63,560 bases of DNA from a virus (lineage: Duplodnaviria > Caudoviricetes): the IMG/VR virus record IMGVR_UViG_3300030382_003361, positions 1-63,560 of that record; one strand, written 5' to 3'. The notes beneath the pieces were generated by a model. It was not told the origin of the DNA and did not search any database. It worked only from the letters and a program-made list of their open reading frames with translations. Shown here in pieces: positions 208 to 61,610 of this stretch (positions are counted from its first letter, which is position 1; every line of letters begins with the position of its first letter). The position numbers and the translations under genes were made by a program.

Positions 208-415
208 GATTATTTAATTCTTTTAATCTATACTCTTGAATTTTAGACAACTTTCCCCCTGTTTTTTTGACTTCCGAAAAAAGAACCGGGCAATTGGGAG
301 GGATAGCTATTAAATCTGGTATCCCATTTTTATTAGTCTTCATTAACTTAATAACATAATACCCTTCAGCTTCTAATTCTTTTATTCTTTTGCGCTGAAC
401 TTGCTGTTCGGTCAT
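176..415 (-). CDS. VRR-NUC family nuclease
   Basis: GIPDL...FSEVK...LSKIQEYR motifs; adjacent to helicase. Confidence 0.85.
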   Translation of the reverse strand: MTEQQVQRKRIKELEAEGYYVIKLMKTNKNGIPDLIAIPPNCPVLFSEVKKTGGKLSKIQEYRLKELNNHGVKTEVYSS

Positions 416-416
416 T

Positions 417-1649
417 CTACAAAGTTAATAAATCTCGCTTAAAGTGATTAAGGGTGTAGTCTTTCTTTTTTACAACAGCTTTGTAAATATCATCTTCTAT
501 TCCGTTTTCACTGAATATCCAGTAAATTTTATTATACAATCTGTCTTTAGTTGTCATACGATCACGGCTTTGCCAGTAGGAGGTGGCGCTAAAATCTATA
601 TTGTAATACACTAAGGCTTGTGCTTTGCGTAAACTAATCCCCTCTCTCCCGCTTACAATTTGCAGAGCGATATTTTTATGAGTAGTATTAAAGCATTCTA
701 AATCTACACATATATCATCGCCAAATACTTTTTTTAACGCATTTAATTCTTCTTTGAATTTGTAAAATATCCCTATTTTTTTATTGCGAAAATGTTTTTT
801 AATAAACTTAGCCTTGGAATAATCAACCACCATAGATTGGCCACTTTCAAATTTTATTGTCCCTGAATAGAGTTGGTGAAGTTTAGTCATGAGTTTAACC
901 GCTGTGTCCGCCAGAATAACTTCTGCCTCTCCTTCTACTACTAAGTCTCGTTTTAATTTACGGATTAAACCCATAGTAGTATCATCTATAGTCACGCGTA
1001 AAACCTCCTCAGAAGTCTTTGTAATGAATCCTGCGCGCTTTTGAGTGTAATTAAGGGTGTAACCCTTCATAGCATCTAAAATGCTTCTTAAGCCCTTAGA
1101 ATAATCATTTACATACATACTCCCTATTTTCCTTTGGTTTACTTTTACATAAGTTTTAGCGAAAGCATAAAAGTTTTTGCAGTTGCTAAAAGGGTTGTTG
1201 GTTATCCCGTATACTTGATGATACATCTGGCTGTAAGATTCGGGAGTGGGAGTACCGCTCATTAAAATAACATAAGGACTGGATCGCCGGATAATTTCTT
1301 TCACTTGTTTAGACCGTTTATTAGGCTTAGGGAAAGCGCCCAATGAATGAGCTTCGTCACACACAATTAAATCCCAGCCCGTTTGTTTGATTTTATGTAA
1401 GGACTCATAATTAATAACTGTTAGCTCAAAAGCGGGGCTAAGCATAGTATAATCATACTCAATACTTGAAATAGCTTTTTTCTTCGTAATAAATAATACG
1501 CTATTCACTTCTAATTTTTGTGCAATACCAAAGCTGGTTAGGGTTTTTCCGGTTCTCACTTCCATAGCTAAATATAAAAACGAGGAGGATCGTAGAATGG
1601 TAGTCCCTTTACCTATTAATTCTACCTGGTAATCTCTAAACTCCATCAT
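417..1649 (-). CDS. SF2 (SNF2-like) DEAH helicase
   Basis: RDYQ Q-motif, TGKT, CDEAH, SGTP, QSRDR. Confidence 0.88.
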   Translation of the reverse strand: MMEFRDYQVELIGKGTTILRSSSFLYLAMEVRTGKTLTSFGIAQKLEVNSVLFITKKKAISSIEYDYTMLSPAFELTVINYESLHKIKQTGWDLIVCDEAHSLGAFPKPNKRSKQVKEIIRRSSPYVILMSGTPTPESYSQMYHQVYGITNNPFSNCKNFYAFAKTYVKVNQRKIGSMYVNDYSKGLRSILDAMKGYTLNYTQKRAGFITKTSEEVLRVTIDDTTMGLIRKLKRDLVVEGEAEVILADTAVKLMTKLHQLYSGTIKFESGQSMVVDYSKAKFIKKHFRNKKIGIFYKFKEELNALKKVFGDDICVDLECFNTTHKNIALQIVSGREGISLRKAQALVYYNIDFSATSYWQSRDRMTTKDRLYNKIYWIFSENGIEDDIYKAVVKKKDYTLNHFKRDLLTL

Positions 1650-4057
1650 AAATCTAATGCGCTCTCGGTTTCATAAAAGTGAGGGGTAACAAATTCAATC
1701 CACCTACCTACATTATCGCGTCCTTCAGAGGGAGGGCAGTTAAACTGAAAAAGAGAGTAGGCTACCAGCCATTTATTAAATCTGTTTCTACTAATGGTCA
1801 TTTTAGCCTTTGGAGCAAAATCAGGGTTTTCATCTATAAAGTCTAAATATAAATCATTTTTATAGATGCGCTGTTTGGTTATTAGTTTAGTGTTTTTCTG
1901 ACCCCCAATTACTCCGCACCACTCCACAAACTCATGGCAGGTTTCAGCAGAAAGTTTTCGGGTTTTAAGGTTAACAAACTCACTTTTTAATAAGCCGTTC
2001 TCTAAATATAATTGTAGGCATTTTACCATATAGTTATCAAATTGACACCATTGGTTATCATCCCATTCTCCAAACATTAATTTGCCAAATTCTACTAATG
2101 GAGTAAAGTCTTTGGTATAAAACTGACTTAATTCTAATTCCCACTTTCGTCTTTCAAAAGACGATCCCTTCCCTTTTATAGCATAATTGGTAGTAATAGC
2201 GACCTTAGGAGATTTATGAAAAGGAATTTTAATAGCATCTTTATTTTTCTTTTCTAAGGTTAACCCTTCTGTTACTACGCTAAATAATCTTTCGAAATCA
2301 AAATTTCTCTTTACATCATCAAAACATAAAATTTGAGTATCGGCTGAGACTAACTGATAAGCAAAAGATTTTTCAAAGTTAAATTGCTTTCCATCTATTA
2401 CTACTAATTTTTTCATGTGAGACAATCCAGTCATAAACAACCCTTTGCCAGTTCCTCCCTCGGGATTATCGGAAATTAATTCATCATTTAAGATGGTCGC
2501 AGGACAATAAGAAAGGTTTTTCCACCCATGAAGGAGAAATCCTATTGTAGACCTCATGGAGCGAATACGCTGTTCAGTAGCGCCTGCAATATTGGAAATA
2601 AATACTTCGTAATCACACTCCGCAATATCACACATATCAAATACCCTATCTATAACATGATCTTTCCATACATATCCTCCTAAATCTAAGTAGTCTATAG
2701 GAAGAACCTCATCTTTTGTTACCTTAACGGCACAATTTTTGTAGTATAAATAGGCAGTGTCTTTTGTGTCTTCTATAAAATAAACATCAATAGAAGAAAG
2801 GAGGGTTAAAAATTCTTCTCTAAAATATCTCGTTCGTTCTGCAAAAAAATTATAGACACTGGTATCTTCAACATCCAGTAAATAATCTAATACAAAATCT
2901 TTTATTTCTTTTTCGGAAGTATGGTCAATTAAATTGTTAGTGACTTTTACGAATACATAATTCTTACTCCCTTCAGGGTTAAACTTATAAAACCCATTAT
3001 CTTCTAAAAACATTTTAAAAGTGATGTGAATTATTCTAATAACCCCCTTTTCGTTCTTACTCCAAAATTTTTGATCAGCTTGTTCCTCTTCTAACCTTTT
3101 GACTACATGTTCTATTACACTAACCTCTACACTTTTGTCTCCGCTAAGTTCTGCTTGTATTTCTTTTTTAGAAACCCCTCTTCTTAATTGTTGCTTAACG
3201 GTATTTACTTTGTCTTCGTCTTCATAGTATTTTGTACCAAAATTTTGTTGTTGTTCGTAAGCAGAATTAATAGTGCGCTCTATTTCGTTTTTAGAAAAAT
3301 CTGAAGAATCAAAACTACTCATTACATATTCGGCTAAAGTTTTAGAAATTCCAAAATCATTAAAAGCTGCCGCTAAAATATATACATTGTTATTTCTTTC
3401 TCCACTCTTGAGGCCATATTTTCTTTCCCACCATTTCATTAGAATATCCACTATTTTATTTTCATTTGTAATAGGAATTGTTTGAATATCTTTATGCTTA
3501 ACTACTTCTTGGTATTGGTGTTCGGTAATTTGATTCCACACACTGGACTGTTCGTTAATAAAAATTAACGGATCGTAGGACTCATAACATACGCGAGATA
3601 AATTTTTACAAGTGGTATCAAAATAAGGAGAATTAAAATGCTTTTCTAAGGAATTAAAAAAGCTTCGATGATTATCTTCTTCATCCGGAATCTTAACTAA
3701 TACTTTTAATCCTAATCCGCTTGGGGATATAAAAACAGAGTAAGTATATCTGTCTTTGGTCAGTCTTTCTTTTTCTTCTAATAAGAGTTTATCACTTTCA
3801 TACCCATCAAAATCTAAACAAATCAATCCACTATGGGTTTCTAAAGAACTATCATTTCTTTTTGTAAATTTACCACTGAAACAAATTGCCGGTAATGTCT
3901 GCTTTAATAAATTTCTTAGTGTCTTATCTTTTTCTTCTCGTATTTTTTTTACTACTTCTTTTGATGACCCCTCTTGTATTCGTTTTAATACTATACTTAC
4001 ATCTCTGTAAAAAGGCTGGGCGGTGTCCTTTATGTCCTTAAAAATTGTGATTTCCAT
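1646..4057 (-). CDS. Primase-helicase (BT4734/VirE-N-like N-terminus, PriCT, P-loop helicase)
   Basis: CLDFD, SPSGLGLK, GERNN, Walker A GGTGKG, Walker B CFDD. Confidence 0.85.
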   Translation of the reverse strand: MEITIFKDIKDTAQPFYRDVSIVLKRIQEGSSKEVVKKIREEKDKTLRNLLKQTLPAICFSGKFTKRNDSSLETHSGLICLDFDGYESDKLLLEEKERLTKDRYTYSVFISPSGLGLKVLVKIPDEEDNHRSFFNSLEKHFNSPYFDTTCKNLSRVCYESYDPLIFINEQSSVWNQITEHQYQEVVKHKDIQTIPITNENKIVDILMKWWERKYGLKSGERNNNVYILAAAFNDFGISKTLAEYVMSSFDSSDFSKNEIERTINSAYEQQQNFGTKYYEDEDKVNTVKQQLRRGVSKKEIQAELSGDKSVEVSVIEHVVKRLEEEQADQKFWSKNEKGVIRIIHITFKMFLEDNGFYKFNPEGSKNYVFVKVTNNLIDHTSEKEIKDFVLDYLLDVEDTSVYNFFAERTRYFREEFLTLLSSIDVYFIEDTKDTAYLYYKNCAVKVTKDEVLPIDYLDLGGYVWKDHVIDRVFDMCDIAECDYEVFISNIAGATEQRIRSMRSTIGFLLHGWKNLSYCPATILNDELISDNPEGGTGKGLFMTGLSHMKKLVVIDGKQFNFEKSFAYQLVSADTQILCFDDVKRNFDFERLFSVVTEGLTLEKKNKDAIKIPFHKSPKVAITTNYAIKGKGSSFERRKWELELSQFYTKDFTPLVEFGKLMFGEWDDNQWCQFDNYMVKCLQLYLENGLLKSEFVNLKTRKLSAETCHEFVEWCGVIGGQKNTKLITKQRIYKNDLYLDFIDENPDFAPKAKMTISRNRFNKWLVAYSLFQFNCPPSEGRDNVGRWIEFVTPHFYETESALDL

Positions 4058-26221: not shown

Positions 26222-28504
26222 ATGGCAAAAATTGAAAATACCACCGTCTATCCTACCGTCTTACCCACGGCTGACGATTTACTGATAGCCACTGATACAA
26301 GTGATGATAATAAGACGGTTACATTTTTAGTTAGTAGTCTTATCGCTCCTTCATCTACACTGCAAGGACTGCAATCTGTTTTAGATACTGGAAATATTGC
26401 TACTCAAACTATGGATTTGACTGGGGATATTAATTTATTAGGAGGTCCAGGTGTTGGATTCCTTGAAACTTGTCAAATTAAATTAGGAGGTAGTTATGGA
26501 GCGGCTGGACAGGTAGTAACTTCACAAGGAGCAGGTTCTTGTGCAATATGGTCTACCCCATCAGCAACATCATGTTGTAGTTTAGATGCCACATTAACAG
26601 TAGGGAATACTTCTTCCCAAGATATTGTACTCGTTAGTAGTCAATTCCAGACAGGAGGAGCGGGAGGAGGTGTGCAGATTACTGGGCCAGCCAGTCTGGT
26701 AAATACAGGGATAAGCATATTTAGCAATACAGTTAGCTTGGTAGGAACAGCTTTAAATTTTGATGCTACTGCGCAAATTAATGATGGTGCGGGTTCAACT
26801 GGTGGAATAGGAGATATCCTAACTGCTACCGCTACAGGAGTTGAGTGGTCAAGCACAATTCCATCGTCATTATGTTGTAATTTACAAGACACTTTAACTT
26901 CAGGTAATACAGCGACAGGGATTGGTATATCAATGACCGCCACATCCCCATTAACATTGGATGCTACGTCAAATATTACCTCATCAGGAACAAACACATG
27001 GAACGGAACAAATACATTTACTGCAGACATTGAAGTAGACGGCACTCTTGAAGACGGCTTAGGGTCGGCTGGCGTTGCGGGTATGGTACTTAGTTCTACA
27101 GGAACTGCAGTAGAGTGGGTTTCAGTAGCGTCTTTAGCGTGCTGTGATTTAGAAGATACTTTAACTGCAGGAAATACAGCAGTTAACAATATGGGATTAA
27201 CAGGAACTCTTACGGTAACCGGTTCGGTTGTGTTAGGATCATCTACTTTAAGCGCTTCAGGTTCAGTAGGAGCGGCGGGGCAAATACTATCTTCTACAGG
27301 TACGGCTACCCAATGGATAAATGCTTCTGCTTTATGCTGTAACTTACAAGACACTTTAGATGTTGGAAATAGCGCCAACCAAAATATAACTCTAACTACT
27401 GCTGGTAACACGATTACCGCACCGTTAGTTGATCCCGACCAAATTGTAGATACTGCAGGAGGAACAGGATTAGCGGGAGAGATTTTAAGCTCTACCGGAG
27501 CAGGTTTAGCATGGATTTCCAGTAGCGCTGCATATAACTGGACGGTAAAAGACGACGCCTCTTTATTAGACGTGGTAAATAGCGGAGATACTTTACTCAT
27601 ATCCGGAGGGACAGGTTTAACATCTGCTTTAACAAACGGAGGAACAAATGTTCCAAGGATGACATTAGATTTAGATGATACAGCGGTAACACCAGGATCT
27701 TATACTAATACTGATCTCACCGTAGACGCTCAAGGAAGAATTACAGCGGCAGCCAATGGAACAGGAGGAGGAGCTGTCACATCGGTGTCGGCTGGAGCTC
27801 CTGGAACAAGTACAGGAACGCCTTTAACTATCACTCCTACCACCGGGGTTGTAGTGGCTACATCCAATGCTTATGCAGGAACAACTAACGTAGGACATGT
27901 ACCACCAGGCGGAACAGCAGCAACATTTTTAAGAGGAGACGCGACATGGCAGTTGCCTCCCGCCGCCCCGAGTATTCTTAATGTAGAAAAACAATTCTAT
28001 TGTGCAGAATCTACAGATTTTAGCACCAGTGTTCACTGGACATGGCATGACCAAATAAATATCGACGCTCCCTCTACCAAAGTAGACCAGCCAGTTCCAG
28101 ATATAGCGTCTATATCAGCAAGAAATGCCTCTTTTGGAGCGGTATATATTAATCCTGATACCGCGGATTGTGAAGCAGCGAGTTGTGCGAAAGTTTTATG
28201 TTCTGTTAAATATGTACTCTCTACTACCGAGGCCGTTACAATAAATCTATACAAGATAGATTTTTGTCCAGGAGGCGTAGAACCTTGGCCTTATACAGCA
28301 GCTGTACTTGCAAACTCATGTAATTTTGCTGCAGGAGTCGACCACGAATTAGTATGTTGTAATGGAGTAAATTTTAATACACCGTCTGCTCAACTACTAA
28401 ATCCAGGAGAGGGGTATATCATGACTATGAGTGCTTTTGGAGCAGCCTCAACCATAGTGCATGGAAACTTCAGCCTCCAAATGATTACTCAAGATTGCAC
28501 TTAG
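26222..28504 (+). CDS. Tail-fibre-like protein with CCxL repeats
   Basis: Gly/Thr-rich; GQILSSTG..W and L.DTL..GN repeats; TVDAQGRIT. Confidence 0.75.
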   Translation: MAKIENTTVYPTVLPTADDLLIATDTSDDNKTVTFLVSSLIAPSSTLQGLQSVLDTGNIATQTMDLTGDINLLGGPGVGFLETCQIKLGGSYGAAGQVVTSQGAGSCAIWSTPSATSCCSLDATLTVGNTSSQDIVLVSSQFQTGGAGGGVQITGPASLVNTGISIFSNTVSLVGTALNFDATAQINDGAGSTGGIGDILTATATGVEWSSTIPSSLCCNLQDTLTSGNTATGIGISMTATSPLTLDATSNITSSGTNTWNGTNTFTADIEVDGTLEDGLGSAGVAGMVLSSTGTAVEWVSVASLACCDLEDTLTAGNTAVNNMGLTGTLTVTGSVVLGSSTLSASGSVGAAGQILSSTGTATQWINASALCCNLQDTLDVGNSANQNITLTTAGNTITAPLVDPDQIVDTAGGTGLAGEILSSTGAGLAWISSSAAYNWTVKDDASLLDVVNSGDTLLISGGTGLTSALTNGGTNVPRMTLDLDDTAVTPGSYTNTDLTVDAQGRITAAANGTGGGAVTSVSAGAPGTSTGTPLTITPTTGVVVATSNAYAGTTNVGHVPPGGTAATFLRGDATWQLPPAAPSILNVEKQFYCAESTDFSTSVHWTWHDQINIDAPSTKVDQPVPDIASISARNASFGAVYINPDTADCEAASCAKVLCSVKYVLSTTEAVTINLYKIDFCPGGVEPWPYTAAVLANSCNFAAGVDHELVCCNGVNFNTPSAQLLNPGEGYIMTMSAFGAASTIVHGNFSLQMITQDCT

Positions 28505-36081: not shown

Positions 36082-36111
36082 GTAGCTTAAAAGGAGTGTA
36101 TAATAATTGTT

Positions 36112-36119
36112 TAACTTTG
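36112..36119 (+). promoter_or_regulatory. -7 box for scaffold/capsid operon
   Basis: TAACTTTG. Confidence 0.65.
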
Positions 36120-36136
36120 CAAAAAAATTAAATCTA

Positions 36137-37312
36137 ATGGAAAATAAAATTACAGTAAAAGACTTAGGACAAGTCGAAGAAAAGTCCAAAGCGCAAGTAG
36201 AGGAAGAGTTGTTAAAAAAACATGAAGAAGAAGAAGTACAAGCGCAAACCAGTGAAGCTGGAGTGGAAAGAGTTAACTTGGAGCAGTCTAATAGAAGCCC
36301 TGAGAGTTCCTCTTCCTCACCGGAACAAGAAAGTGTACCGGAGGAAAGTAAAACACAAGAAAAAACTCCCTCCTCAGAGTTAAATGAGGAAAACGTTCTT
36401 TCGTATATTAAACAAAGATATGATAAAGATATATCGTCAGTAGAAGAATTATGGGCTCAACAAGAGTCTAATGAAGACCTCCCTGAAGATGTGTCGGCAT
36501 ATTTTAAATATAAAAAAGAAACGGGACGCGGTATTGAAGATTATGTGCGATTACAAAAAAATTACACAGAAATGGACGACGACGCGGTGTTAACTGATTA
36601 CTATACGGCTACCGAAGATGGGTTAGACGCTATAGATATTCAAGATGTCATGGAGGATAAATTTGGAGTGGATGAAGACTTAGATGATCCAAAAGATATT
36701 AAGAAGAGAAGGTTAGCGAAAAAAAGAGAACTTTCAAAGGCGAAGAAGTTTTTTGAAAAGCAAAAGGAACAATATAAAATTCCGCTTGAGTCAAGAGGGG
36801 ATGGGTTGTCCAAAGAACAAGAAGATGCTTTTAAGTCGTATAAAAGTTATGTTGAGGAGTCTAAAACTACCGAAGACGCGAGAAAAAAAAGGTATGATTG
36901 GTTTCTTACTAAAACCAATGAGGTTTTTAACGATGAGTTCAAAGGTTTTGAGTTCAATATCGGAGAAAAAAGTTTTACCTTTAAACCTGGTGACGCTAAG
37001 GAGTTAAAAAGTCGCCAGTCTGATGTCAATACATTTGTAAATAAATATATGGACCAAGAGACTGGAATGATGAAGGATGCACAAGGATATCACCGAGCAA
37101 TAGCTATGGCGATGAACCCTGAGAAATTTGCAAAATTCTTCTACGACCAAGGGGTGGCAACGACAGTAGATGATGTGGCGAGAAAATCGAAAAACATCAC
37201 TATGGATCGTCAAACTCCACAAACTTTTAGTAAAGACGGGTTGAAGATTAGATCAGTCGGAGATTCAAGTAGTGGAAGAGGACTCAAAATTAGAAGTATT
37301 AAAAAAAGTTAA
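36137..37312 (+). CDS. Putative capsid scaffolding protein (start revised to ATG 36137)
   Basis: Acidic, helical, between portal and MCP; the track start at 36107 lies upstream of the promoter box. Confidence 0.7.
   Translation: MENKITVKDLGQVEEKSKAQVEEELLKKHEEEEVQAQTSEAGVERVNLEQSNRSPESSSSSPEQESVPEESKTQEKTPSSELNEENVLSYIKQRYDKDISSVEELWAQQESNEDLPEDVSAYFKYKKETGRGIEDYVRLQKNYTEMDDDAVLTDYYTATEDGLDAIDIQDVMEDKFGVDEDLDDPKDIKKRRLAKKRELSKAKKFFEKQKEQYKIPLESRGDGLSKEQEDAFKSYKSYVEESKTTEDARKKRYDWFLTKTNEVFNDEFKGFEFNIGEKSFTFKPGDAKELKSRQSDVNTFVNKYMDQETGMMKDAQGYHRAIAMAMNPEKFAKFFYDQGVATTVDDVARKSKNITMDRQTPQTFSKDGLKIRSVGDSSSGRGLKIRSIKKS
36222..36383 (+). CDS. Nested +1-frame 53-aa basic protein with ArfA-like motif
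   Basis: MKKKKYKRKPVKLEWKELTWSSLIEALRVPLPHRNKKVYRRKVKHKKKLPPQS; A-rich leader. Confidence 0.6.
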   Translation: MKKKKYKRKPVKLEWKELTWSSLIEALRVPLPHRNKKVYRRKVKHKKKLPPQS

Positions 37313-52374: not shown

Positions 52375-54570
52375 ATGGCAAAAGGAATTGTAAATTACAC
52401 CCCCCGAGGACCTGCATCAACTAAAAAAGATATTGACTTTGATGTTTACGCAGAAAGAGATGTTACTAAAAGTCAAGTAAATTGGGCGGATGTAGCTAAA
52501 AATATTACAGGAGAACTCGAAACTATTCGAGACGATAGGCAGGGTAGGAAAGCTGAAATCCAAAAAGCTACCGATGAGTCGATGACCCAGTTGGATGATA
52601 TGGGCAAGTATGATAATCAAACACTCATGGATTTGGTTGTAGATGGTTCAAATTTTGCCGCTAATAGTATGAACACCCAGAAAAAACTTATGGAAAAAGG
52701 GTTGATAAAACCCCATGACTATACTAAATTTACTCAAAATGTAAGCTCTGGATTTAAAACGTTCAAGGCTACAGCCGAGGGTTGGGATAAGGATTTTGCA
52801 GAATATACTAAAAGAACAGAAGATGGAACAAATAGTAGTTTAGAAGTGTATTTAGCTAAACAAGTAGAATCCTTTGGTAACATTAATGATATGCAATTAT
52901 ACACCAATCCACAAACAGGAAATATGGCGTTAGCCTCTACTTATGTGGATGATAATGGAATAACGCGTATAAATGAAGACCCTAATAGTCATATTAGTAT
53001 GCAAAGGCTGAATGCACTAAGTAAACAAAGAATAGATAAAGTAAATGTAGGGGAAGTGTCTAAAGTGTATAGCGCTGAATTAGGAACATGGATAACAGCA
53101 GCTTACGATGCGAGTGATAAATCCGTGACCTCGATTGAAGATATAAGAAGGGGTAAAGATTTTCAGGATCTATTAGAAGTAAAGGCTAACCAAGCTATAG
53201 CAAACCCTACCCATGCTGGTAGTATCTTAGCGGATAATAATTTAATGACATCAGATGGAGAAAAATATAGAGGGGGATCTCAGGAGGAGTTTGACCAATG
53301 GGCAAAAGACCATCCTGGAACAGAGAAGATTCAAGTACCGCCTTTGGCTGATGAAACCGAAGGAAATGCTTTTAGGCAATGGGTTAATGATACTTACCCT
53401 GAGAAAGCTACAGAATTTGACTTAGATGCCACAGGAGCTCATGATAATGAATTTATCAAAAAGGCTTATGAGTCATTAGGAGAAGAATACGCCCGAGATG
53501 TATTAGGTATTGAACCTACCGTAGGGGGAGTAGAGAATCCTATTATTGTTATGGAGTATGACCAAAAAACCCAAAGAAAAATTCCAAAGTTAACTGAGAA
53601 CCAAGAAAAAGTAGCCAAAGATTTTGTGAAGTCGGCTATTGAAGGACACTTGCCGCATATAGAAAAAGTACAGCAAGGGAAATTCCCTCCTGCTAAAAGA
53701 GCGCCAACTGCGATTAGTTATGGACAAGAAAAAGAAGAAAAGGTACATACCAGCTTAGTAACCGAATATGACCTTATATTAAGTTCAGATAATCCAGATG
53801 AAATAAACAGATATTTAGATCGTAGAATTAGCGAAAAAAATAAAGCTATCAATACTTATAATGCAGACAATGAAGATGACCAACAGGCTACTATTGAAAA
53901 TAGAGAGGTAACGACAAATGATGCAGGTAATCAGGTAATCCGATTCACTCTCTCCGATGGCACAACAGTAGATGTGGATAGAAGCTTAAGTTATACCGAC
54001 CAAATGGTTCAATTAGACGAAGCATTAAACCCAGAAGGAACTCTTAATTTATCCGAAATTGAAGACGCTGCAAAAAAGATGGAGATTGACATGAATAAGG
54101 AGGGTAGTAAGTATGAAACCGATGGAAAAGTGAAGGTATCAAAATCTCAATTCAAGCAGCCTGATTATAGCCAGCCAAAAATGGTAGGAGGAAAAGTTCA
54201 AACTGCTGACGCATATATACAGAGCGAACTGGGAGCAACCCTTGAGGTAGGAAGTGATAGTGATAATCAAATAAAACAAGTCTTCTCTGAAGCAACAACT
54301 GGATATCTGCCTTCTGACTTTAAAAAATTAATGGCTGAAAACGGAACATCTCTTAAAGTTAAATATGAAGGACGTGGGGCACGAACAGATGTAATGACCA
54401 TGAGTTTAAATGGTATAACGATAACACTTAAGCCACGAAAGACTAATAAATCCGCCACACTATGGCAGACTATCATGGATGATTTAATAAAACCTGCTAT
54501 TGAGAAATCCAACAAAGAACGAGGGGGAGGAACAACGAAAAAGAACGAAGGACGCGGAAATTCAAGATAA
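52375..54570 (+). CDS. Internal virion/ejection protein
   Basis: Large helical protein in podovirus core-gene position. Confidence 0.6.
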   Translation: MAKGIVNYTPRGPASTKKDIDFDVYAERDVTKSQVNWADVAKNITGELETIRDDRQGRKAEIQKATDESMTQLDDMGKYDNQTLMDLVVDGSNFAANSMNTQKKLMEKGLIKPHDYTKFTQNVSSGFKTFKATAEGWDKDFAEYTKRTEDGTNSSLEVYLAKQVESFGNINDMQLYTNPQTGNMALASTYVDDNGITRINEDPNSHISMQRLNALSKQRIDKVNVGEVSKVYSAELGTWITAAYDASDKSVTSIEDIRRGKDFQDLLEVKANQAIANPTHAGSILADNNLMTSDGEKYRGGSQEEFDQWAKDHPGTEKIQVPPLADETEGNAFRQWVNDTYPEKATEFDLDATGAHDNEFIKKAYESLGEEYARDVLGIEPTVGGVENPIIVMEYDQKTQRKIPKLTENQEKVAKDFVKSAIEGHLPHIEKVQQGKFPPAKRAPTAISYGQEKEEKVHTSLVTEYDLILSSDNPDEINRYLDRRISEKNKAINTYNADNEDDQQATIENREVTTNDAGNQVIRFTLSDGTTVDVDRSLSYTDQMVQLDEALNPEGTLNLSEIEDAAKKMEIDMNKEGSKYETDGKVKVSKSQFKQPDYSQPKMVGGKVQTADAYIQSELGATLEVGSDSDNQIKQVFSEATTGYLPSDFKKLMAENGTSLKVKYEGRGARTDVMTMSLNGITITLKPRKTNKSATLWQTIMDDLIKPAIEKSNKERGGGTTKKNEGRGNSR

Positions 54571-57500
54571 TGTTTGAAGATAAAACCATAGAAGAAGTAG
54601 AGCAGTTATTAGCCGACTATATAGCCACTGTAGATAATCCTGAATATGGAGGCGATATGGAGGTGATAAACTCTAAATTTCCAGAATTTCAAAATGTAGA
54701 CCCTCAGTTGTTAGAAGATTATATTGCTACTTATAATAATCCTGAATATGGGGGAAATATAGAGATTATTAATTCTAAATTTCCAGAATTTTTTGAAGGG
54801 TTAAAAAAAAAAGACGCTGGCGTGGTTACTTCGGAAACGGAAGGTATGGAATCCGTTACACCTCAAGAAGGGGAAGAAGTTATCTCATCGGATGCTTCGC
54901 AAGTAACTACAACTGAATCTCCTGAAGGAGAAGTAACCGAAGATGTTACTCTCGAATCACAAACCGTTATTCCTGAAGATGAAGATGAGGAGGAGATTGA
55001 AGGAATGGAAACCTATGTCAGTCCTTATGCGACAGGTGAGGGAGAAAAAAATACCTGGATAGAAGACTTCGCAGGTAAAAATGAGTTAACAGATTTTTTT
55101 GGAGATATATATAGAAGCTGGGATGCAGGCCAAGCTCAAGGAGGTAGTATAGATGAAAGTTTAGAGTTATGGGCAAAAGGAGATAACGCTACAGACGAAG
55201 ATATTGAAGCTTTTTTAGCAGCGCAAGAGCGTATGCAGTCCAAAGGAGAGTCCGATGAAATGCGTGACTTTAATAAAATATATCAAGCAGAAGATGGAGG
55301 TTGGTGGGGATTTATTAAAGGGGTAGCCGCTAACCCTACCGTTATTCCTCAACTTTTTACATCTTCAGTAAGCGCTATGGTTAATCCAGCTGTCTTAGCA
55401 GCAGGGGCAGGAGGAGCAGCAGTAGGAGCAGGGATTGGATCAACAGGGTTTAGCGCAGGACCCTTAGGAGTATTTACTACTGCAGGAGGAGCTATTGCGG
55501 GAGGAATGGGCGCTATGGGTGCAACTTTAGAAACAGGATTAACATTTTCTGAACTACTTTTAGAAGAGTTAGGAGATAAACCTATGACTAAAGAGAATGT
55601 AAGAAAAGTTTTACAAGACCCGGAGGCTATGGCCAGTATCAGAAGAAAAGCTTTAGGAAGAGGATTAACTATTGGGGCGGTAGATGCAATCTCAGCAGGA
55701 GTTGCGAGTAAAGTCACTGCGGGAACTATTAAGGCGGTTAGAAAAGGGAAGAAAGTAAAAAAATTAGCAACGATGGCAGGAACGGCTGCTGGAGGAACAG
55801 TAGAGGCGGTAGGGGGATCTACAGGAGAAGTGGCTGGTAGGTTAGTTGCAGGACAAGAAATGGATGTGGCTGAAATTGGTTTTGAAGGAATAGCTGGAAC
55901 AGCAACCGCACCACTTACCATAGGGTATGGTATATATAAAGCTAACCGTGGACCTGTATCAAAAGCGCAAATAGAAGATATACTGGACAATGGATCAGAC
56001 GAAGATATTGCTGGGGTAAACTTAGAAATAATCAATGACCCTGAATTAAAACAAAGAGCTGCAGATGCTAAGGAAAATATAAAAACAGAAACACGATTAC
56101 GAGGGGAATTTGAGGAGGCGGGAATTACCGATGAAAATGATATAAATGAATTACTGGATTTAGAAAAACAAAAAGAAAAATTAGAAGGAGCTACCTCTGA
56201 GACAGCAAAAAATCGAGTAAAACAGATTGTTGATCAAATAGAGGCAGTTATACAAAAAGGAGCTTTCAGAAAGAAAGCAGTGGAAGAGACTACGGAGCAA
56301 ACTACTGAAGAAACGATTGAAACCCAGAGAGAAGAAGAATTAGAAGAGCATATAGATAAATTTTTTACTGAAGATAAAGAGACTGGTAATAGAGTAGGGC
56401 CAAATCCTGATACTCAACCTGAATTATACAATGAAGAAATTAAGAAGAGGGATGATATTAATAAGAAATATGATGAATTATTAACCGAAAAAAAGAAACA
56501 AGATGCCATTCAAAAGCAAAGCACAGAAACGCTGGATGTTCAAGAACAAACCCCAGATGGCCAAAGAGTGGGCGAACGAGACGCCCCAGTGGCTGAGGTT
56601 ACCCGAGAGAGTGAAACGGAAATTGAAACCGATACTCAACCGCCAACGCAAGAGGAAGTAGCTGTTCAAGAGGAAGCTAAAGATTTACAAACATTATTAG
56701 AAGAACAAGAAACAGTTCCTACTCCAGAAGCTGAAGTCACAACCCAAGAAACAGCAGTAGAAGTAGACACCGAGGCAGGAACAGTAGGCGTAACACGAAG
56801 CGATGGAACAAAAGTGGTATTAAAAGGATCAAGTGTCGCTCCTAATGTACAGATTACTGAACAAACTACTGAACAGACAAAAACAGGAAAGATTGGAAAT
56901 ATTTTAGTAGCCAAAGCGAAGAATGCAGGGAAGGCAATAGCTAAATTATTACCTGGCGCAAATATTGTTATTCATGCCACAGAAAAAGCCTATAACCAAG
57001 CGGTTGCTGAGAACGCAAAAGGATCAAGGGGTGCTTATTCAGGAAACACTAATACTATCCATATTAACGCTAATAAGGCTAATGCTAAAACCCTAACACA
57101 TGAAGTTTTTCACGCTATCCTTAAAAATAAACTAAAGTCAGAGGTAAATATACAGGCGGTAACTAAACGAATGGTGAATGCTGTTTCAAAAAGCCTAAAG
57201 AATAGACCTAAATTAAAAGCAATGTTGGATAAATACGCTTCTAATTTTGCAGAAAATCTTCAGAGCGAAGAAAAATTAGCGGAATTAGTAGGAGCTTTAG
57301 CTGACGATTTTACTAAATTAGATGCTCCTACCAGAAGTCTCGTAAAGCGATGGTTAGATAAAATAGCACAAACTTTTGGCATTACTACTGAAACTCAATC
57401 TGTTCAAGATACTATTGACCTTTTAAATACTATTGCGGAAAAAGTATCTACAGGACAAGAGGTTACAAAAAAAGATGTGAAGAGTGTTAAAAAAAGAAAA

Positions 57501-60500
57501 CCGAAAAAGAAATCTAAAACCAAAAAATCTCCAGATGATGAAATGAGAGAGGCTTACGAACAACGAGAGAAGCAATTAGAGAAAGAGATGCAAGGAGAAA
57601 CAGGACTAAAGGGTCCTGTGAGTTACATCGAACAACAAATCCACGATTATTTTGGGGGGATAACCAGAGAAGACTTTGACCAATTTGGTGATCGTAATTT
57701 AAGAAGTAGAGCTTTAAACTTTTTATTAAGAAAAGAAGCCTCTCCTATTGACGCTCAAGCTATGGAGATAAGTGAGATGGCGGGTGTAGAGATTACCCCT
57801 CAAGACATTGTAGATTACATGGTGGACCGAGTAAATAGCCCAGGAAAATATGCTCAAGCAAAAACACAAGCTCTTACAGGGCTGGCTAAATTAGCAGCGG
57901 ATTATAATATGAATCCTCGAGGGTTTATGCCTGCTAATATCCATAATTTATACGCTCTTAAAAAGGCAGCCCAAGAATTTGGAGCAGAAGTGAAGGCGGG
58001 TATAATAAGAGAAGGATATAGAAAAGGCGAAGTGGCAGGGTATTATTTTACTAAAGGCGGGAGATTTCTTAATCCTATAGCTCAAGATAAAACCCAAGCA
58101 ATTAAAGGAGAGAATGCAAAAAAAGTAACTGATCAAAAAGATAATGTAGCAAACATTATACAGACAGCCCGTGAAAATAATTTTAGTGATGCGGCTATTA
58201 AGAAGTATTTAAGCGATGTAAAAGGGCTTACTGAAGCTGAGGTTACTACCGCCTTAGAAGTTCAAACTAAACTGTTAGAAAAAATTCCAACCACTTTTAC
58301 AGCTGTAGAGGGAGGGTTGGCTCAGGGATTAAAACTATTTAATGAAGTTAAATCTGAGTTAAAAAAGTTTGCTGCTGATAAGAAAAATAGCTTAGGAGAT
58401 GTTAGAGCTAAGGCTATGGAATTAATGCAAAACCATGAGATATTCCAAAAGCAACCTGATCAAATTCAACAAGAATTAATAAGCTCCTTTGATAGAACTT
58501 TAGGAACTCAAGCTAACCCTAATGTACAAAAGCAAATCAGCGAAATAAGAAATGATATTAAACAACGAAAAGCAGGAGCAAAAAATCTTAAAGCTGCCCA
58601 AACTAAAGTGAAGAATTTTATTCGTAGAACCCTTCCTGCATCTAAAACCTACACCCAAGCTCAAATTAACAAGTTAGTAAGTTTAGTAAGTAATAGTACA
58701 GAAACCAACTTCCAACAACAAAGCGAAAAAGTATTACAGATTGTAGATCAAGAGCGTGCTAAGATGAAGAAAGGAGCTCTTAAAAAGATTCTTGATTTAG
58801 TAAAAGCGAAAGCTAAAAAACGAAGATTAGGAAGTAAAAAAGTTAGAAGTAAAGGTCTGGACGCAGAAGGTCAAGGGTTTTTTGCAGCTGTAAAACCTAT
58901 ATTAGAAGCGGCTATAAAACAAGACGCAGATACGCTGGCGGCAATTAAAAACAGATTAGATGAAAACGAATCGGTTATTGATGAGGCGTTACAGAAAGAG
59001 TTAAGAGGAGAAAAGCTGACGGCTAATGAACAGAAGCTGTTAGACGAGGCATTTGCGTATGATACTTTTGCAGAAGTAAGTGCCATGCAAGTAGAAGATG
59101 TTGAAGTGTTACTTCAGGGATTAAAGGATGTGAGAACAGAATCTATTAAGAGGTTATCCAGCAGACGATTGGCCAGAGCTAAAGCTAACGAAAGAATGAC
59201 ATCTCAAGCTGATAAACAAATCCAAGAGGACTATGGAATATTATATAATGAAGACGGAACTCTTAAGTCAGAAAATCAACTGCGGAATGAGAAGAATGAA
59301 ATATGGAACAATTTCAAAAAATTAAAGATATGGTCGGGAATAAAACAATGGGCGGCTCGAACAGACTTCACTTCCACCACAGGAATCTTTGATTGGTTTA
59401 GAAACCGTTTATTTCATTTAGGCACTCTTACTAATATATTAGACAGAACCCATAAAAAAAACACCTTCTTTAGAGATAGCATCTACCGTCCTTTAAATCG
59501 GATGAATGAAAAAGCCGTAGGAGGACATCAATCGGAACGAACGAAGTTAGACGCTCTGGCTAATACTATTGAGGGTGTAACCCGGGGGGTAAGACAAATT
59601 GTAGGAAATTTAGCTACAGGAGTTCATCATCTTACAGGAATGCCTAAAGCCCTTTCAGGGCCTTATAATGCTGATCAATTATTAAGAATATACGCTTTAA
59701 GTAAAAACGATATACAGAGAGCGAAGTTAGAAAAAATGGGAATTGGCCCTACCCAGCTCGCGCAAATTGAAGGGATTGTTGGGCCAGAGGCCGTGCAATT
59801 CGCAGATAAAGTAGTAGATTATTTAAGTAATACCTACTTTGACAGTGTTAATTCCGTATACTCACAAACCAATGATGTAAATTTAGGATATGTACCCAAC
59901 TACTTCCCCACAAAAACCGCCCAGACTAATGTGGATGGAAAACTATTAGAAGATGGAAATTTTAACGGTATATTTAATGAAGAAACCGCGCCTGCTCTTA
60001 AAGAAAGAATAGATAGGACAGGAGAGATTGATTTAAAAGGAAACTTTATCGAGGTATTAGATAACCATTTTCAGTCGATGGAGAAATATAAGGCCTTTGC
60101 AGAGGGAGTAAAAAAACTAAACTCTTTATTTAAAATAAAATCTGTTAACACTTTAGTAGAACAAACAGGATTAAAGTCTGCTATCAAAACAGCTATAAAT
60201 TTTGTTGTTAATCCTAATTCTGGCCCTCAGATTCCACCAACTCTAATCAATAGAGCTATGAGTAAATTTACATCCTATGCTTTAGCTTTTAAATTGATTC
60301 AAATCCCTAAACAAGCGTCTTCTTTTATTACAGCTTTTGAGAACTATAGTTTTAGAGGAGAAGGAAAACCATATATCCCAGGTATGGATACTCTTGGGTT
60401 TATGATGGACACCGCTTATTTAATCGCCACCCTCCCTATGCAAATTAAAAAAGCTTACGGGATATCTGCGGAATTTAGAAATAGAATAAAACAAGGATTA

Positions 60501-61610
60501 GAAGGGGATATTTACGGATTAGCATCTGGAGCAAAAACATTTAAACCTGTGCGAAAAGGGTCAGGTTTCTGGGCTAAAGCCGTCCAAGCACTAAGAACTG
60601 GCGCTGCGGCCCCAACTATATTAGGTGATATATTAGGGGTAATGGGGTATATGATTAATTACAATCGAAACATTGCTAACGGCATGAGTAAAGCAGAAGC
60701 ATTAGAAGCCTTCAACGATTACAATGCGACTCAGCAAACCAGAAGAGGAACAGAAAAAATTCCTTTACAAATGGATCAACATGCTATAAGCCGTTCTTTT
60801 ACTATGTTTGGAAGCACTCTTTTTCTACAACTTAATAAAGTTTCCTCTACTTTTACTAATGTGATGAGGGCACTAAAAGACGGGAAACCCCCCAGGACAC
60901 AAGATCTTAGAGGGTTTATACTAAATTATTCAGCAGCCAATATGATGTTTATGGGAATTGCTAATATCGCTAAGTTTATTGAGGGAGAGGATGAGGATAG
61001 AGAAGACGCATTAGACGCCGTGCGAGACGCAGGATTAGGACTTAATATTATTTATCAAATTCCGTTATTAGGGGCGGCAGTAGAGACTATGGTTAACAAA
61101 GCGACGGACTCGAGAAAACCTGTGAGTGATGTAGTAAATCCTTATATCAATGTGTTTAGAAAAATTAGTAAGGGAATTGACGACAAGAGCGTGTTTAGAG
61201 TCATCCAGCCGTTTATTGAGTTAGTGTTGGGAGCCCAAATGGATCCTTTTATTGCGCTCTATAACGGCCTAAGTGGTGATGATATTATATCCGATAAAGA
61301 GGGTTTTGATGAGAGTAATGTGTATGATATATTAGGAATCAGTAAGTCATACCGACCAAAAGAACATATACAAAAACCTCCTACTGCGCAAGAAATGAAA
61401 ATATACAAGAAAGAAAACCCTGAGCTTTATTTACAATTACTTGAGCTTTACCCTCCTGAGGATAAAAAAACAGAGAGCATGAAGCAGCGAGAGAAAAATC
61501 TCAAGAAAGAAAACCCTGAACTTTATTTACAATTAAAAGAGCAAGGAACCCTTAAAGAACACTTAAGAAAAAAACGCAAGAAAGACGAAAAAGAATGGGA
61601 AATATTTTAA
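54570..61610 (+). CDS. Giant (2346 aa) ejected/polyvalent protein with zincin-like HEXXH domain
   Basis: Gly/Ala hydrophobic helices; IHIN...THEVFH...EEKLAE. Confidence 0.75.
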   Translation: MFEDKTIEEVEQLLADYIATVDNPEYGGDMEVINSKFPEFQNVDPQLLEDYIATYNNPEYGGNIEIINSKFPEFFEGLKKKDAGVVTSETEGMESVTPQEGEEVISSDASQVTTTESPEGEVTEDVTLESQTVIPEDEDEEEIEGMETYVSPYATGEGEKNTWIEDFAGKNELTDFFGDIYRSWDAGQAQGGSIDESLELWAKGDNATDEDIEAFLAAQERMQSKGESDEMRDFNKIYQAEDGGWWGFIKGVAANPTVIPQLFTSSVSAMVNPAVLAAGAGGAAVGAGIGSTGFSAGPLGVFTTAGGAIAGGMGAMGATLETGLTFSELLLEELGDKPMTKENVRKVLQDPEAMASIRRKALGRGLTIGAVDAISAGVASKVTAGTIKAVRKGKKVKKLATMAGTAAGGTVEAVGGSTGEVAGRLVAGQEMDVAEIGFEGIAGTATAPLTIGYGIYKANRGPVSKAQIEDILDNGSDEDIAGVNLEIINDPELKQRAADAKENIKTETRLRGEFEEAGITDENDINELLDLEKQKEKLEGATSETAKNRVKQIVDQIEAVIQKGAFRKKAVEETTEQTTEETIETQREEELEEHIDKFFTEDKETGNRVGPNPDTQPELYNEEIKKRDDINKKYDELLTEKKKQDAIQKQSTETLDVQEQTPDGQRVGERDAPVAEVTRESETEIETDTQPPTQEEVAVQEEAKDLQTLLEEQETVPTPEAEVTTQETAVEVDTEAGTVGVTRSDGTKVVLKGSSVAPNVQITEQTTEQTKTGKIGNILVAKAKNAGKAIAKLLPGANIVIHATEKAYNQAVAENAKGSRGAYSGNTNTIHINANKANAKTLTHEVFHAILKNKLKSEVNIQAVTKRMVNAVSKSLKNRPKLKAMLDKYASNFAENLQSEEKLAELVGALADDFTKLDAPTRSLVKRWLDKIAQTFGITTETQSVQDTIDLLNTIAEKVSTGQEVTKKDVKSVKKRKPKKKSKTKKSPDDEMREAYEQREKQLEKEMQGETGLKGPVSYIEQQIHDYFGGITREDFDQFGDRNLRSRALNFLLRKEASPIDAQAMEISEMAGVEITPQDIVDYMVDRVNSPGKYAQAKTQALTGLAKLAADYNMNPRGFMPANIHNLYALKKAAQEFGAEVKAGIIREGYRKGEVAGYYFTKGGRFLNPIAQDKTQAIKGENAKKVTDQKDNVANIIQTARENNFSDAAIKKYLSDVKGLTEAEVTTALEVQTKLLEKIPTTFTAVEGGLAQGLKLFNEVKSELKKFAADKKNSLGDVRAKAMELMQNHEIFQKQPDQIQQELISSFDRTLGTQANPNVQKQISEIRNDIKQRKAGAKNLKAAQTKVKNFIRRTLPASKTYTQAQINKLVSLVSNSTETNFQQQSEKVLQIVDQERAKMKKGALKKILDLVKAKAKKRRLGSKKVRSKGLDAEGQGFFAAVKPILEAAIKQDADTLAAIKNRLDENESVIDEALQKELRGEKLTANEQKLLDEAFAYDTFAEVSAMQVEDVEVLLQGLKDVRTESIKRLSSRRLARAKANERMTSQADKQIQEDYGILYNEDGTLKSENQLRNEKNEIWNNFKKLKIWSGIKQWAARTDFTSTTGIFDWFRNRLFHLGTLTNILDRTHKKNTFFRDSIYRPLNRMNEKAVGGHQSERTKLDALANTIEGVTRGVRQIVGNLATGVHHLTGMPKALSGPYNADQLLRIYALSKNDIQRAKLEKMGIGPTQLAQIEGIVGPEAVQFADKVVDYLSNTYFDSVNSVYSQTNDVNLGYVPNYFPTKTAQTNVDGKLLEDGNFNGIFNEETAPALKERIDRTGEIDLKGNFIEVLDNHFQSMEKYKAFAEGVKKLNSLFKIKSVNTLVEQTGLKSAIKTAINFVVNPNSGPQIPPTLINRAMSKFTSYALAFKLIQIPKQASSFITAFENYSFRGEGKPYIPGMDTLGFMMDTAYLIATLPMQIKKAYGISAEFRNRIKQGLEGDIYGLASGAKTFKPVRKGSGFWAKAVQALRTGAAAPTILGDILGVMGYMINYNRNIANGMSKAEALEAFNDYNATQQTRRGTEKIPLQMDQHAISRSFTMFGSTLFLQLNKVSSTFTNVMRALKDGKPPRTQDLRGFILNYSAANMMFMGIANIAKFIEGEDEDREDALDAVRDAGLGLNIIYQIPLLGAAVETMVNKATDSRKPVSDVVNPYINVFRKISKGIDDKSVFRVIQPFIELVLGAQMDPFIALYNGLSGDDIISDKEGFDESNVYDILGISKSYRPKEHIQKPPTAQEMKIYKKENPELYLQLLELYPPEDKKTESMKQREKNLKKENPELYLQLKEQGTLKEHLRKKRKKDEKEWEIF
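56503..56661 (+). CDS. Nested +1-frame 52-aa basic protein of MPFKSKAQ type
   Basis: MPFKSKAQKRWMFKNKPQMAKEWANETPQWLRLPERVKRKLKPILNRQRKRK; A-rich leader. Confidence 0.7.
   Translation: MPFKSKAQKRWMFKNKPQMAKEWANETPQWLRLPERVKRKLKPILNRQRKRK

What the first reader, a model, noticed from the sequence alone, without database searches (positions are those of the whole stretch)
56503..56661. Hidden MPFKSKAQ-type gene nested in the +1 frame of the giant virion protein
Seen: an ATG-to-TAG 52-codon ORF (MPFKSKAQKRWMFKNKPQMAKEWANETPQWLRLPERVKRKLKPILNRQRKRK) below the track cutoff. It has an A-rich leader (AAAAAAAGAAACAAG-ATG) like real starts here. It lies under an acidic low-complexity linker (DAIQKQSTETLDVQEQ...) whose codons are locally G/C-ending (ACG, CTG, GTG, GCC, CCG), unusual for this AT-rich genome. 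Recollection, not searched: MPFKSxAQxRWM..NKPxMAKxW..ETP...LPE is a small basic protein I recognise as a stand-alone gene in other phages. Inference: a true overprinted or engulfed gene, with the host-frame linker being its by-product.
Basis: partly seen in the sequence, partly recalled or inferred. Interest (0 to 1): 0.9.

Follow-up and report, generated by a model that had tools for sequence, protein, structure and literature searches.

The report
Small conserved gene nested inside virion gene
A 52-codon gene for a small basic protein, normally a free-standing phage gene, lies hidden in a shifted reading frame inside a giant virion-protein gene and is kept intact across many related marine phages, so standard annotation misses a real gene.

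Summary
The peptide belongs to a very large uncharacterised family of small basic phage proteins (phrog_1375; 4331 representatives at 50% identity). It is usually a free-standing gene. The family domain starts at residue 1 in 135 of the 150 best hits.

63 viral contigs were chosen only by the giant protein's N-domain. 43 carry one family copy at the same site; all 8 checked are intact ATG ORFs in frame +1. Ten carry it about 14-17 kb upstream; all 3 checked are nested, again +1, in the gene after the portal gene. Cultured Flavobacterium elemo phages carry it nested and unannotated.

Substitution counts show strong purifying selection on the nested frame (0.07-0.17) and weak selection on the host frame (0.32-0.84). 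Flanks show none on the +1 frame.

Shine-Dalgarno-like sequences precede the nested ATG in 13 of the 14 nested loci whose host ORF is not AT-rich; the five AT-rich loci, this window among them, have A-rich leaders and no such sequence.

It is the only family copy in this complete genome. Its function is unknown; a capsid-interior role is my inference. No expression data exist.

The parts
56503..56661 (+). Nested gene for a 52-aa small basic protein (MPFKSKAQ-type, phrog_1375 family), in the +1 frame of the giant virion gene
   Evidence: ORF and translation; phrog_1375, E 3.7e-4; relatives; nested-frame dN/dS 0.07-0.17; only family copy in the complete genome
56479..56502 (+). A-rich leader of the nested start, with no Shine-Dalgarno sequence, inside host coding sequence
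   Evidence: 23-sequence consensus AAnAAnAAnTAAAAnAAAAAnAAG before ATG; real starts in the window look alike; no anti-SD pairing here; strong pairing in 13 of the 14 nested loci whose host ORF is not AT-rich
54570..61610 (+). Host gene: 2346-aa giant virion protein, last gene of the + strand structural block
   Evidence: phrog_32588, E 2.1e-69 on residues 157-689; terminase, portal and virion structural genes upstream
56337..56789 (+). Acidic low-complexity linker of the host protein (about residues 590-740) that holds the nested gene
   Evidence: translation; host-frame reading is poorly conserved among relatives
55062..56009 (+). Conserved N-domain of the giant protein, used to collect relatives independently of the nested gene
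   Evidence: 54-59% identity to L083 and L084; 63 viral contigs, 32-71% identity
56847..57569 (+). Domain with an HExxH motif downstream of the linker, shared with the Flavobacterium elemo phage giant protein
   Evidence: HEVFH motif; 43% identity to L001 over residues 793-964; 40% identity to L083 and L084
36107..37312 (+). 401-aa gene after the portal gene. Its homologues in some relatives hold the nested small gene instead; this copy holds none
   Evidence: G047: 38% identity, small gene nested +1 at about codon 56; G061, G054; no second family match in the window

Best explanation
The ORF 56503-56661 is a functional protein-coding gene nested in the +1 frame of the giant virion-protein gene. 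It belongs to an old, very widespread and uncharacterised family of small basic phage proteins. Family members have an invariant N-terminal Met-Pro-(Phe)-x-Ser-x-x-Gln, two short helices and a Lys/Arg tail. In most phages the gene is free-standing. In this lineage it lies inside an acidic, disordered linker of the giant protein. The shared nucleotides are shaped mainly by the small protein, and the host frame reads them as a tolerant acidic spacer. This is an engulfed older gene, the reverse of classical overprinting. Inferred, not shown: the small protein is made by independent internal initiation at its own ATG on the late structural mRNA. That start has an A-rich leader without a Shine-Dalgarno sequence here, and Shine-Dalgarno-like leaders in relatives whose host ORFs are not AT-rich. 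Inferred with low confidence (about 0.3): the product acts inside the capsid or in head assembly and packaging, for example by binding packaged DNA or the portal/scaffold region.
For: HOMOLOGY. The peptide matches phrog_1375 at E 3.7e-4. 355 of 600 pattern stretches in viral contigs encode relatives, and the best 80 all start with ATG. The profile finds 3556 clusters and 4331 representatives, 956 of them at E<=1e-10.

N-TERMINAL POSITION. The domain begins at residue 1 in 135 of the 150 best representatives and never later than residue 37.

INDEPENDENT SAMPLE. 63 contigs were chosen by the giant protein's N-domain alone. 53 have one family match. 43 of these lie 227-1328 nt downstream on the same strand; the window's lies 494 nt downstream. 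8 of 8 inspected are ATG ORFs of 49-55 aa in frame +1 of giant ORFs.

SELECTION. In 15 nested sequences over 35 codons, nested dNN/dNS is 0.17 and host dNN/dSN is 0.84. In a clade of 8, nested is 0.07 (bootstrap 0.01-0.19) and host is 0.32. Flank controls give +1-frame ratios of 0.84 and 0.94. Ser5 switches between the two serine codon families while the host residues change. In the window's own clade, mean column identity is 64% in the nested frame and 55% in the host frame.

INITIATION SIGNALS. In 13 of the 14 nested loci that are not AT-rich (host-ORF GC 0.39-0.64), anti-SD pairing upstream of the nested ATG falls in the top 0.1-4.4% of all windows of the host ORF.

SOLE COPY. It is the only family copy in this complete genome and in 5 of 5 other records tested.
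Against: There is no expression evidence of any kind: no RNA run holds the stretch, and there is no proteomics or ribosome profiling.

The sequences used for the dN/dS count were found through the peptide itself, which biases them towards a conserved nested frame. The pairs are not independent, and the flanks are near saturation (31-37% identity).

In the independently chosen clade the contrast is smaller (64% against 55%).

10 of the 63 relatives have no family match, although at least 2 of those contigs are truncated. The gene may therefore be dispensable or replaceable.

The window's own leader shows no sequence-specific initiation signal beyond A-richness. A at -3 is not conserved.

Gene neighbourhoods are mixed. 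Many are packaging or head modules, but one contig type is a DNA-metabolism context and Streptomyces phages place it beside a holin. The proposed function is therefore weak.
Confidence: 0.82

Rival explanations
1. The nested gene is part of a mobile or frequently recombining cassette. It inserts into, or is exchanged between, disordered acidic linkers of virion genes in the one frame that the host can read through. This resembles the out-of-frame HNH insertion elements described in phage methylase genes. The product could still be functional, so this reading does not exclude the best explanation.
For: The host genes are not homologous to each other: the window's giant protein matches only 2 of the loci held. 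One phage clade shows two different nest sites, 43 in the giant linker and 10 upstream; all 3 of the upstream cases that were checked lie in the post-portal gene. Contigs of two runs match the flanks of the laid 801-base stretch with few differences but carry about 104 different letters in place of 56528-56628. In one of them the first 30 letters after the break still read as a family-like peptide in the nested frame. The window's peptide is as close to stand-alone members (63%) as to other nested ones (63-64%). A precedent exists in PMC11855218 (abstract and outline read).
Against: The 40-57-aa product has no nuclease or recombinase domain: Pfam, NCBIfam and solved-structure searches all found nothing. 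Every record tested holds one copy only. No flanking repeats or target-site features were sought or seen. Engulfment by start-codon migration or gene fusion explains the post-portal site equally well, because free-standing copies sit between portal-sized and head genes in other contigs.
Confidence: 0.15
2. The ORF is a decaying relic of a swallowed gene, or a by-product of constraints on the host frame or on the DNA or RNA, and it is not translated.
For: No expression data exist. Ten of 63 relatives lack a match. A few weak matches contain stop codons within the profile match.
Against: Intact ATG ORFs persist across hosts whose flanks have diverged to 31-37% identity. The nested-frame ratio is 0.07-0.17, against about 0.9 in the flanks. 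Serine codon-family switches preserve the nested residue. Shine-Dalgarno-like sequences sit inside the host coding sequence. It is the sole family copy in complete genomes.
Confidence: 0.04
3. The +1 frame is reached by programmed ribosomal frameshifting from the giant ORF. That would give a truncated giant protein with a basic C-terminus rather than a separate small protein.
For: The A-rich run upstream (AAAAAAAG) could in principle be slippery.
Against: Met1 is invariant, and the family domain is N-terminal in free-standing proteins. The +1 frame is closed only 6 codons upstream of the ATG in the window and 0-43 codons upstream in the other nested loci. Shine-Dalgarno-like sequences lie at initiation distance. 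The upstream sequence is not conserved as a slippery site.
Confidence: 0.02

Closest known systems
phrog_1375 small basic phage proteins as free-standing genes, for example Mycobacterium phage Indlulamithi gp3 and Streptomyces phage FlowerPower gp48
   Same: They share the N-terminal motif, the size (about 40-72 aa) and the basic tail. The window peptide matches the profile.
   Different: Those are separate annotated genes, after the portal gene or beside a holin. Here the gene lies wholly inside another gene, in another frame, and is not annotated. No member has a known function.
Rz/Rz1 spanin genes of phage lambda (Rz1 embedded in the +1 frame of Rz); recalled from general knowledge, not from a call
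   Same: A small gene with its own start lies entirely inside a larger phage gene in the +1 frame.
   Different: Rz1 and Rz are functional partners. Here the embedded gene is a family that is free-standing in most phages, and the host is a virion protein whose overlapping part is only a disordered linker. No partnership between the two products has been shown.
ShiLan-type insertion with a hidden out-of-frame HNH endonuclease in actinophage methylase genes (PMC11855218; abstract and outline read)
   Same: A pre-existing kind of gene sits out of frame inside a stretch that the host gene reads through without stop codons.
   Different: The hidden gene there is a homing endonuclease, which explains its mobility. 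Here it is a 40-57-aa basic protein with no nuclease domain, one copy per genome, and purifying selection typical of a phage gene in use.
Classical overprinted genes of phiX174 (B in A, E in D, K); recalled
   Same: Two proteins are read from the same DNA in different frames in a phage.
   Different: In overprinting the new frame is the young one. Here the nested frame is the old, widespread family and the host-frame reading is the young by-product.
Phage T4 internal proteins and N-terminal capsid-targeting sequences (recalled; a functional analogy only)
   Same: They are small basic proteins, or N-terminal modules on varied cargo, linked to the capsid interior. Here the domain is always N-terminal, also on proteins of up to 980 aa.
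   Different: There is no sequence or fold similarity, and no evidence that this protein is in virions.

Membership tests
phrog_1375 / MPFKSKAQ-type small basic phage protein family | Significant profile or sequence match to family members | tested here: met
   phrog_1375 at E 3.7e-4, residues 3-42. tblastn to viral contigs reaches 9e-15 at 73% identity. The A1 profile gives 3.5e-23, but that profile includes the window's own peptide.
phrog_1375 / MPFKSKAQ-type small basic phage protein family | The domain sits at the very N-terminus, with invariant M1 P2 F3 S5 K6 Q8 | tested here: met
   All six invariant columns of the 59-sequence alignment are present in the window peptide. The domain starts at residue 1 in 135 of the 150 best representatives.
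phrog_1375 / MPFKSKAQ-type small basic phage protein family | Short two-helix core followed by a Lys/Arg-rich tail | tested here: met
   AlphaFold2 with alignment A1: mean pLDDT 80, helices 6-15 and 17-26, tail without secondary structure. The tail ends in RQRKRK.
phrog_1375 / MPFKSKAQ-type small basic phage protein family | Encoded by a free-standing gene | tested here: not met
   Here the gene is nested in the +1 frame of a 2346-aa ORF. This is an arrangement difference and does not exclude homology.
Nested (embedded) overlapping genes of phages | The whole ORF lies inside another gene in a different frame and has its own start codon | tested here: met
   The same holds in elemo phages and in 8 of 8 relatives inspected.
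Nested (embedded) overlapping genes of phages | Purifying selection on the embedded frame beyond that on the host frame | tested here: met
   Nested 0.07-0.17, host 0.32-0.84, flank +1-frame controls 0.84-0.94. This was a custom count on peptide-selected loci. The independent clade gives 64% against 55% column identity.
Nested (embedded) overlapping genes of phages | The embedded product is actually translated | not testable with these tools
   No RNA holder was listed. Only indirect signals exist: Shine-Dalgarno-like sequences in 13 of the 14 nested loci that are not AT-rich.
Out-of-frame mobile insertion elements (ShiLan-type hidden HNH) | The hidden gene encodes a homing endonuclease or other mobility enzyme | tested here: not met
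   No Pfam, NCBIfam or solved-structure match for the peptide or its relatives. The products are 40-57 aa.
Out-of-frame mobile insertion elements (ShiLan-type hidden HNH) | Presence/absence or site polymorphism among related hosts | tested here: inconclusive
   One clade has two nest sites and 10 of 63 records without a match. Allele replacement appears in contigs that otherwise match the flanks. Boundaries and empty sites were not mapped.
DUF3008 (PF11450) | Match to the Pfam model | tested here: not met
   No Pfam hit at E<=1 for the window peptide or for 8 other members. The only link is an Atlas feature score of 0.85, which is a lead and no more.
Polyvalent / giant internal virion proteins (the host gene) | Large multi-domain virion protein with polyvalent-protein-associated (LPD) or internal-virion domains | tested here: inconclusive
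   The window's giant protein has no Pfam domain and matches only phrog_32588. Other hosts of the nested gene carry LPD23 (L041) or match an internal virion protein phrog (L008).

The most novel reading that the evidence does not exclude
A widespread small phage gene has been swallowed repeatedly by disordered acidic regions of unrelated virion-protein genes: giant ejected or polyvalent proteins, and the post-portal, scaffold-position gene. It is always swallowed in the single frame in which its lysine-rich codons read as a harmless acidic spacer. This would be a general 'reverse overprinting' route to gene overlap. It would tie synthesis of the small basic protein to late virion genes and hide a conserved, possibly capsid-internal, protein from every current phage annotation.
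Probability: 0.45. Interest if true: 0.85.

Novelty: new variant of a known kind. Interest (0 to 1): 0.74.

Why it matters
Gene finders forbid genes nested inside other genes, so this protein is missing from the one cultured-phage record inspected; the same place in the other Flavobacterium elemo genomes listed carries only the structural-protein annotation. It would also be missed in the many marine phage contigs that carry it.

The case is unusually clean. The nested gene belongs to a large family that is free-standing elsewhere, so its coding status does not rest on the overlap alone.

It shows an uncommon evolutionary direction: an old gene overprinted by the extension or fusion of its neighbours. 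It also shows that disordered acidic linkers of virion proteins can act as 'parking places' for another gene.

Carriers are in culture, and a start-codon knockout that is synonymous in the host frame is possible. The biology is therefore directly testable, and the test could give a first function for a family with thousands of members and no annotation.

Tried and rejected
A single-sequence word-index search with the peptide found nothing; the alignment query worked.

blastn of 2.5 kb around the site against cultured phages gave no match.

Pfam, NCBIfam and solved-structure sequence searches gave no family for the peptide or its relatives. Foldseek against the PDB gave only chance hits (E>5). 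Foldseek against BFVD returned only uncharacterised family members. The Atlas returned only unnamed viral clusters, with DUF3008 at 0.85 as an untested lead that the Pfam scans then failed to support.

Long N-terminal fusions were scanned for functional clues. Nothing appeared beyond phrog_1375 and one DUF5661.

Gene neighbourhoods were examined for function. They are mixed, so no function could be fixed.

No RNA holder was listed for the stretch. The runs that were laid are DNA contigs and say nothing about expression.

The metagenome scan with the HExxH domain returned only 2 loci, whose nested peptides are the same as, or one residue from, those of L083 and L084.

A strict degenerate DNA pattern for the N-terminus missed most of the window's own clade, because position 6 is Gln there. 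It hit 10 of the 63 and was replaced by profile searches.

Planned but not done because the script machine was lost: counting stop codons in the host-equivalent frame of free-standing genes, a tree of nested against free-standing peptides, and dN/dS on the independently sampled clade. As a partial substitute, 43 of the 65 non-nested loci have the host-equivalent frame closed within 45 codons or fewer around the gene's midpoint.

I did not ask for paper supplements; none appears to bear on these claims.

The searches behind 'not in print' are (the N-terminal motif as a word, 0 papers). None of the listed titles or abstracts describes this nested gene.
Full report
OBSERVATION. The window is a complete virus record of 63,560 bases with CheckV completeness 100. 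It lies in the +1 frame of a 2346-aa ORF, 54570-61610. That ORF is the last gene of a + strand block holding terminase, portal and virion structural genes. The nested ORF is the longest same-strand alternative-frame ORF in that 7-kb gene; only one other reaches 40 aa. The host frame reads the stretch as part of a long acidic low-complexity linker. GC rises locally to 0.46-0.49, against 0.30-0.38 in the flanks. The leader is A-rich and lacks a Shine-Dalgarno sequence, like six real starts read in the window.

THE PEPTIDE BELONGS TO A LARGE FAMILY OF REAL GENES.
- It matches phrog_1375 (unknown function) at E 3.7e-4.
355 of them encode relatives, and the best 80 all begin with ATG and the same N-terminal motif.
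- An alignment of 59 members (A1) has invariant M1 P2 F3 S5 K6 Q8 and nearly invariant K4 A7 P17 A20 T27 L33 P34.
- With A1, 3556 protein clusters score E<=0.001. The 120 listed carry no Pfam domain and are named at most 'hypothetical protein'.
- A full HMMER search finds 4331 representatives, 956 of them at E<=1e-10. The domain starts at residue 1 in 135 of the 150 best and never later than residue 37, in proteins of 51 to 980 aa.
- Pfam, NCBIfam and solved structures have nothing for it.
- AlphaFold2 predicts two short helices (6-15 and 17-26) and an unstructured basic tail, with mean pLDDT 80. Fold searches return only chance hits or uncharacterised family members.

NESTING RECURS, ALWAYS IN THE SAME FRAME.
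- Among the 80 viral loci, 15 carry the gene inside stop-free frames of 1321-2046 codons. In every case the host frame is the peptide frame +2, which makes the peptide +1 of the host. Five further loci are ambiguous: L005, L006, L012, L013 and L078.
- The tblastn search listed 68 records of cultured Flavobacterium elemo phages. In the one inspected, a 42-aa ATG ORF lies in the +1 frame of the 3694-aa 'structural protein', and no CDS is annotated for it.
- Four of 41 MAG loci are also nested in the same way.
- The hosts are not one family. The window's giant protein matches only L001 and L037 among the loci held at that point. One host carries LPD23, and another matches an internal virion protein phrog.

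AN INDEPENDENT SAMPLE. To avoid choosing loci by the peptide, I collected 63 viral contigs through the giant protein's conserved N-domain alone, at 32-71% identity. I then searched their whole records with the family profile.
- 53 of the 63 records have exactly one match. Among records at least 90% complete, 12 of 13 have one.
- 43 matches lie 227-1328 nt downstream of the N-domain on the same strand; in the window the distance is 494 nt. All 8 that I inspected are ATG ORFs of 49-55 aa in frame +1 of ORFs of at least 1739 codons.
- Ten matches lie about 14-17 kb upstream. All 3 that I inspected (G047, G061, G054) are ATG ORFs of 43-57 aa nested, again +1, at about codons 43-56. Their host is the 388-419-aa gene directly after the portal-sized gene, in its acidic N-terminal region. 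That gene is homologous to window ORF 36107-37312 (38% identity).
- Ten records have no match, and at least two of those contigs end too early to hold one.
- The nested copy is the only family copy in this genome and in 5 of 5 other records tested.

WHICH FRAME IS SELECTED. I ran an OLGenie-style count on 15 ungapped nested sequences over 35 codons.
- Nested-frame dNN/dNS is 0.17 and host-frame dNN/dSN is 0.84.
- In a clade of 8, nested is 0.07 (bootstrap 0.01-0.19) and host is 0.32 (0.08-0.98).
- Mean amino-acid identity is 70% in the nested frame, against 48% in the host frame and 48% in the third frame.
- In that clade's flanks the +1 frame gives 0.84 and 0.94, and host identity falls to 31-37%. 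The overlap is therefore an island of conservation.
- Ser5 switches between the two serine codon families while the host residues change.
- Caveats: these loci were found through the peptide, the pairs are not independent, and the flanks are near saturation.
- In the independently sampled clade I aligned 19 of the 43 giant-linker loci (two of them read through the earlier loci L083 and L084 of the same contigs) plus the window. The nested frame has 64% mean column identity with 6 invariant columns. The host frame has 55% with 1 invariant column.

INITIATION SIGNALS. In 13 of the 14 nested loci that are not AT-rich (host-ORF GC 0.39-0.64), pairing to the anti-Shine-Dalgarno sequence in the 15 nt upstream of the nested ATG ranks in the top 0.1-4.4% of all windows of the same host ORF; L069 is the exception. 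The five AT-rich loci (GC 0.32-0.39: the window, the elemo phage, L024, L083 and L084) show none. This fits Bacteroidota, which lack Shine-Dalgarno sequences (PMC6847099, abstract read). Their leaders are A-rich, but A at -3 is not conserved.

NEIGHBOURHOODS AND FUNCTION. Free-standing copies often sit beside terminase-like genes (clusters in 12 and 6 loci), portal genes (5 and 3 loci) or head genes. In 3 loci the copy lies 10 nt after a giant gene of the same phrog as the window's (one representative per cluster was scanned). Other contexts differ: DNA-metabolism genes in one contig type, and between a 'peptidase' and a holin in Streptomyces phages. The function therefore stays open. The capsid-interior or packaging role is my inference from three things: the basic tail, the strictly N-terminal position (also on longer proteins), and the association with virion genes.

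POPULATION DATA. The stretch occurs in marine metagenome runs. Many unrelated contigs match only 56490-56547, which covers the last bases of the leader and the first 15 codons of the nested gene. Two runs' contigs match the flanks but carry about 104 different letters in place of 56528-56628, and one of them continues with a family-like peptide. This is compatible with allele exchange and keeps the mobile-cassette rival alive.

COMPARISON AND VERDICT. Nested genes in phages are known (Rz/Rz1 and phiX174; both recalled). One paper describes an out-of-frame endonuclease hidden in an in-frame insertion (PMC11855218). Three things are new here. An old, widespread, free-standing gene family is repeatedly found swallowed by acidic linkers of unrelated virion genes. 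It is always in the same frame. It is under stronger selection than its host frame and is absent from the annotation inspected. The script machine was lost, so a tree and a codon-model test on the independent sample were not done.

Noticed in passing
window 56847-57569 (giant protein residues about 760-1000): A domain with an HExxH motif (HEVFH) follows the linker. It is shared at 40-43% identity with the elemo phage giant protein and with L083 and L084. It may be a zincin-like peptidase module of the giant virion protein.
   Followed up: partly
window 54570-54800 and 61400-61610: The giant protein starts with two tandem copies of a unit of about 38 aa (..DYIAT..NPEYGG..INSKFPEF..). It ends with a repeated KKENPELYLQL unit.
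   Followed up: no
L100, L101, L106, L108-L112, L114-L118, L120-L122, L124, L126 (MAG contigs, some over 1 Mb): A longer subfamily has the same N-terminal motif plus an inserted helix (..RRKFAELLV..EEWNRETG..LPERV..). It lies on large chromosomal contigs of Acidobacteriota, Gemmatimonadota and Proteobacteria MAGs, so the family may also be cellular or prophage-borne.
   Followed up: partly
P0191, P0129, P0170, P0251, P0254 and others: The small-protein domain also occurs as the N-terminus of proteins of up to 980 aa. Their remaining parts match no Pfam or PHROG family, except one DUF5661.
   Followed up: partly
window 56528-56628: In contigs of two marine runs that match the flanks with few differences, this middle part of the nested gene is replaced by about 104 different letters. 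This suggests allele exchange or very fast divergence inside the overlap.
   Followed up: partly
window 26641-27600 (-) inside 26222-28504 (+): A 319-aa ATG ORF lies antisense within a 760-aa ORF. It was not examined.
   Followed up: no
L021, L054, L061 (positions 1-3160): In these contigs a giant gene matching the C-terminal part of phrog_32588 is followed after 10 nt by a free-standing copy of the small gene. In L021 that copy has a C-terminal tail similar to the window's peptide.
   Followed up: partly
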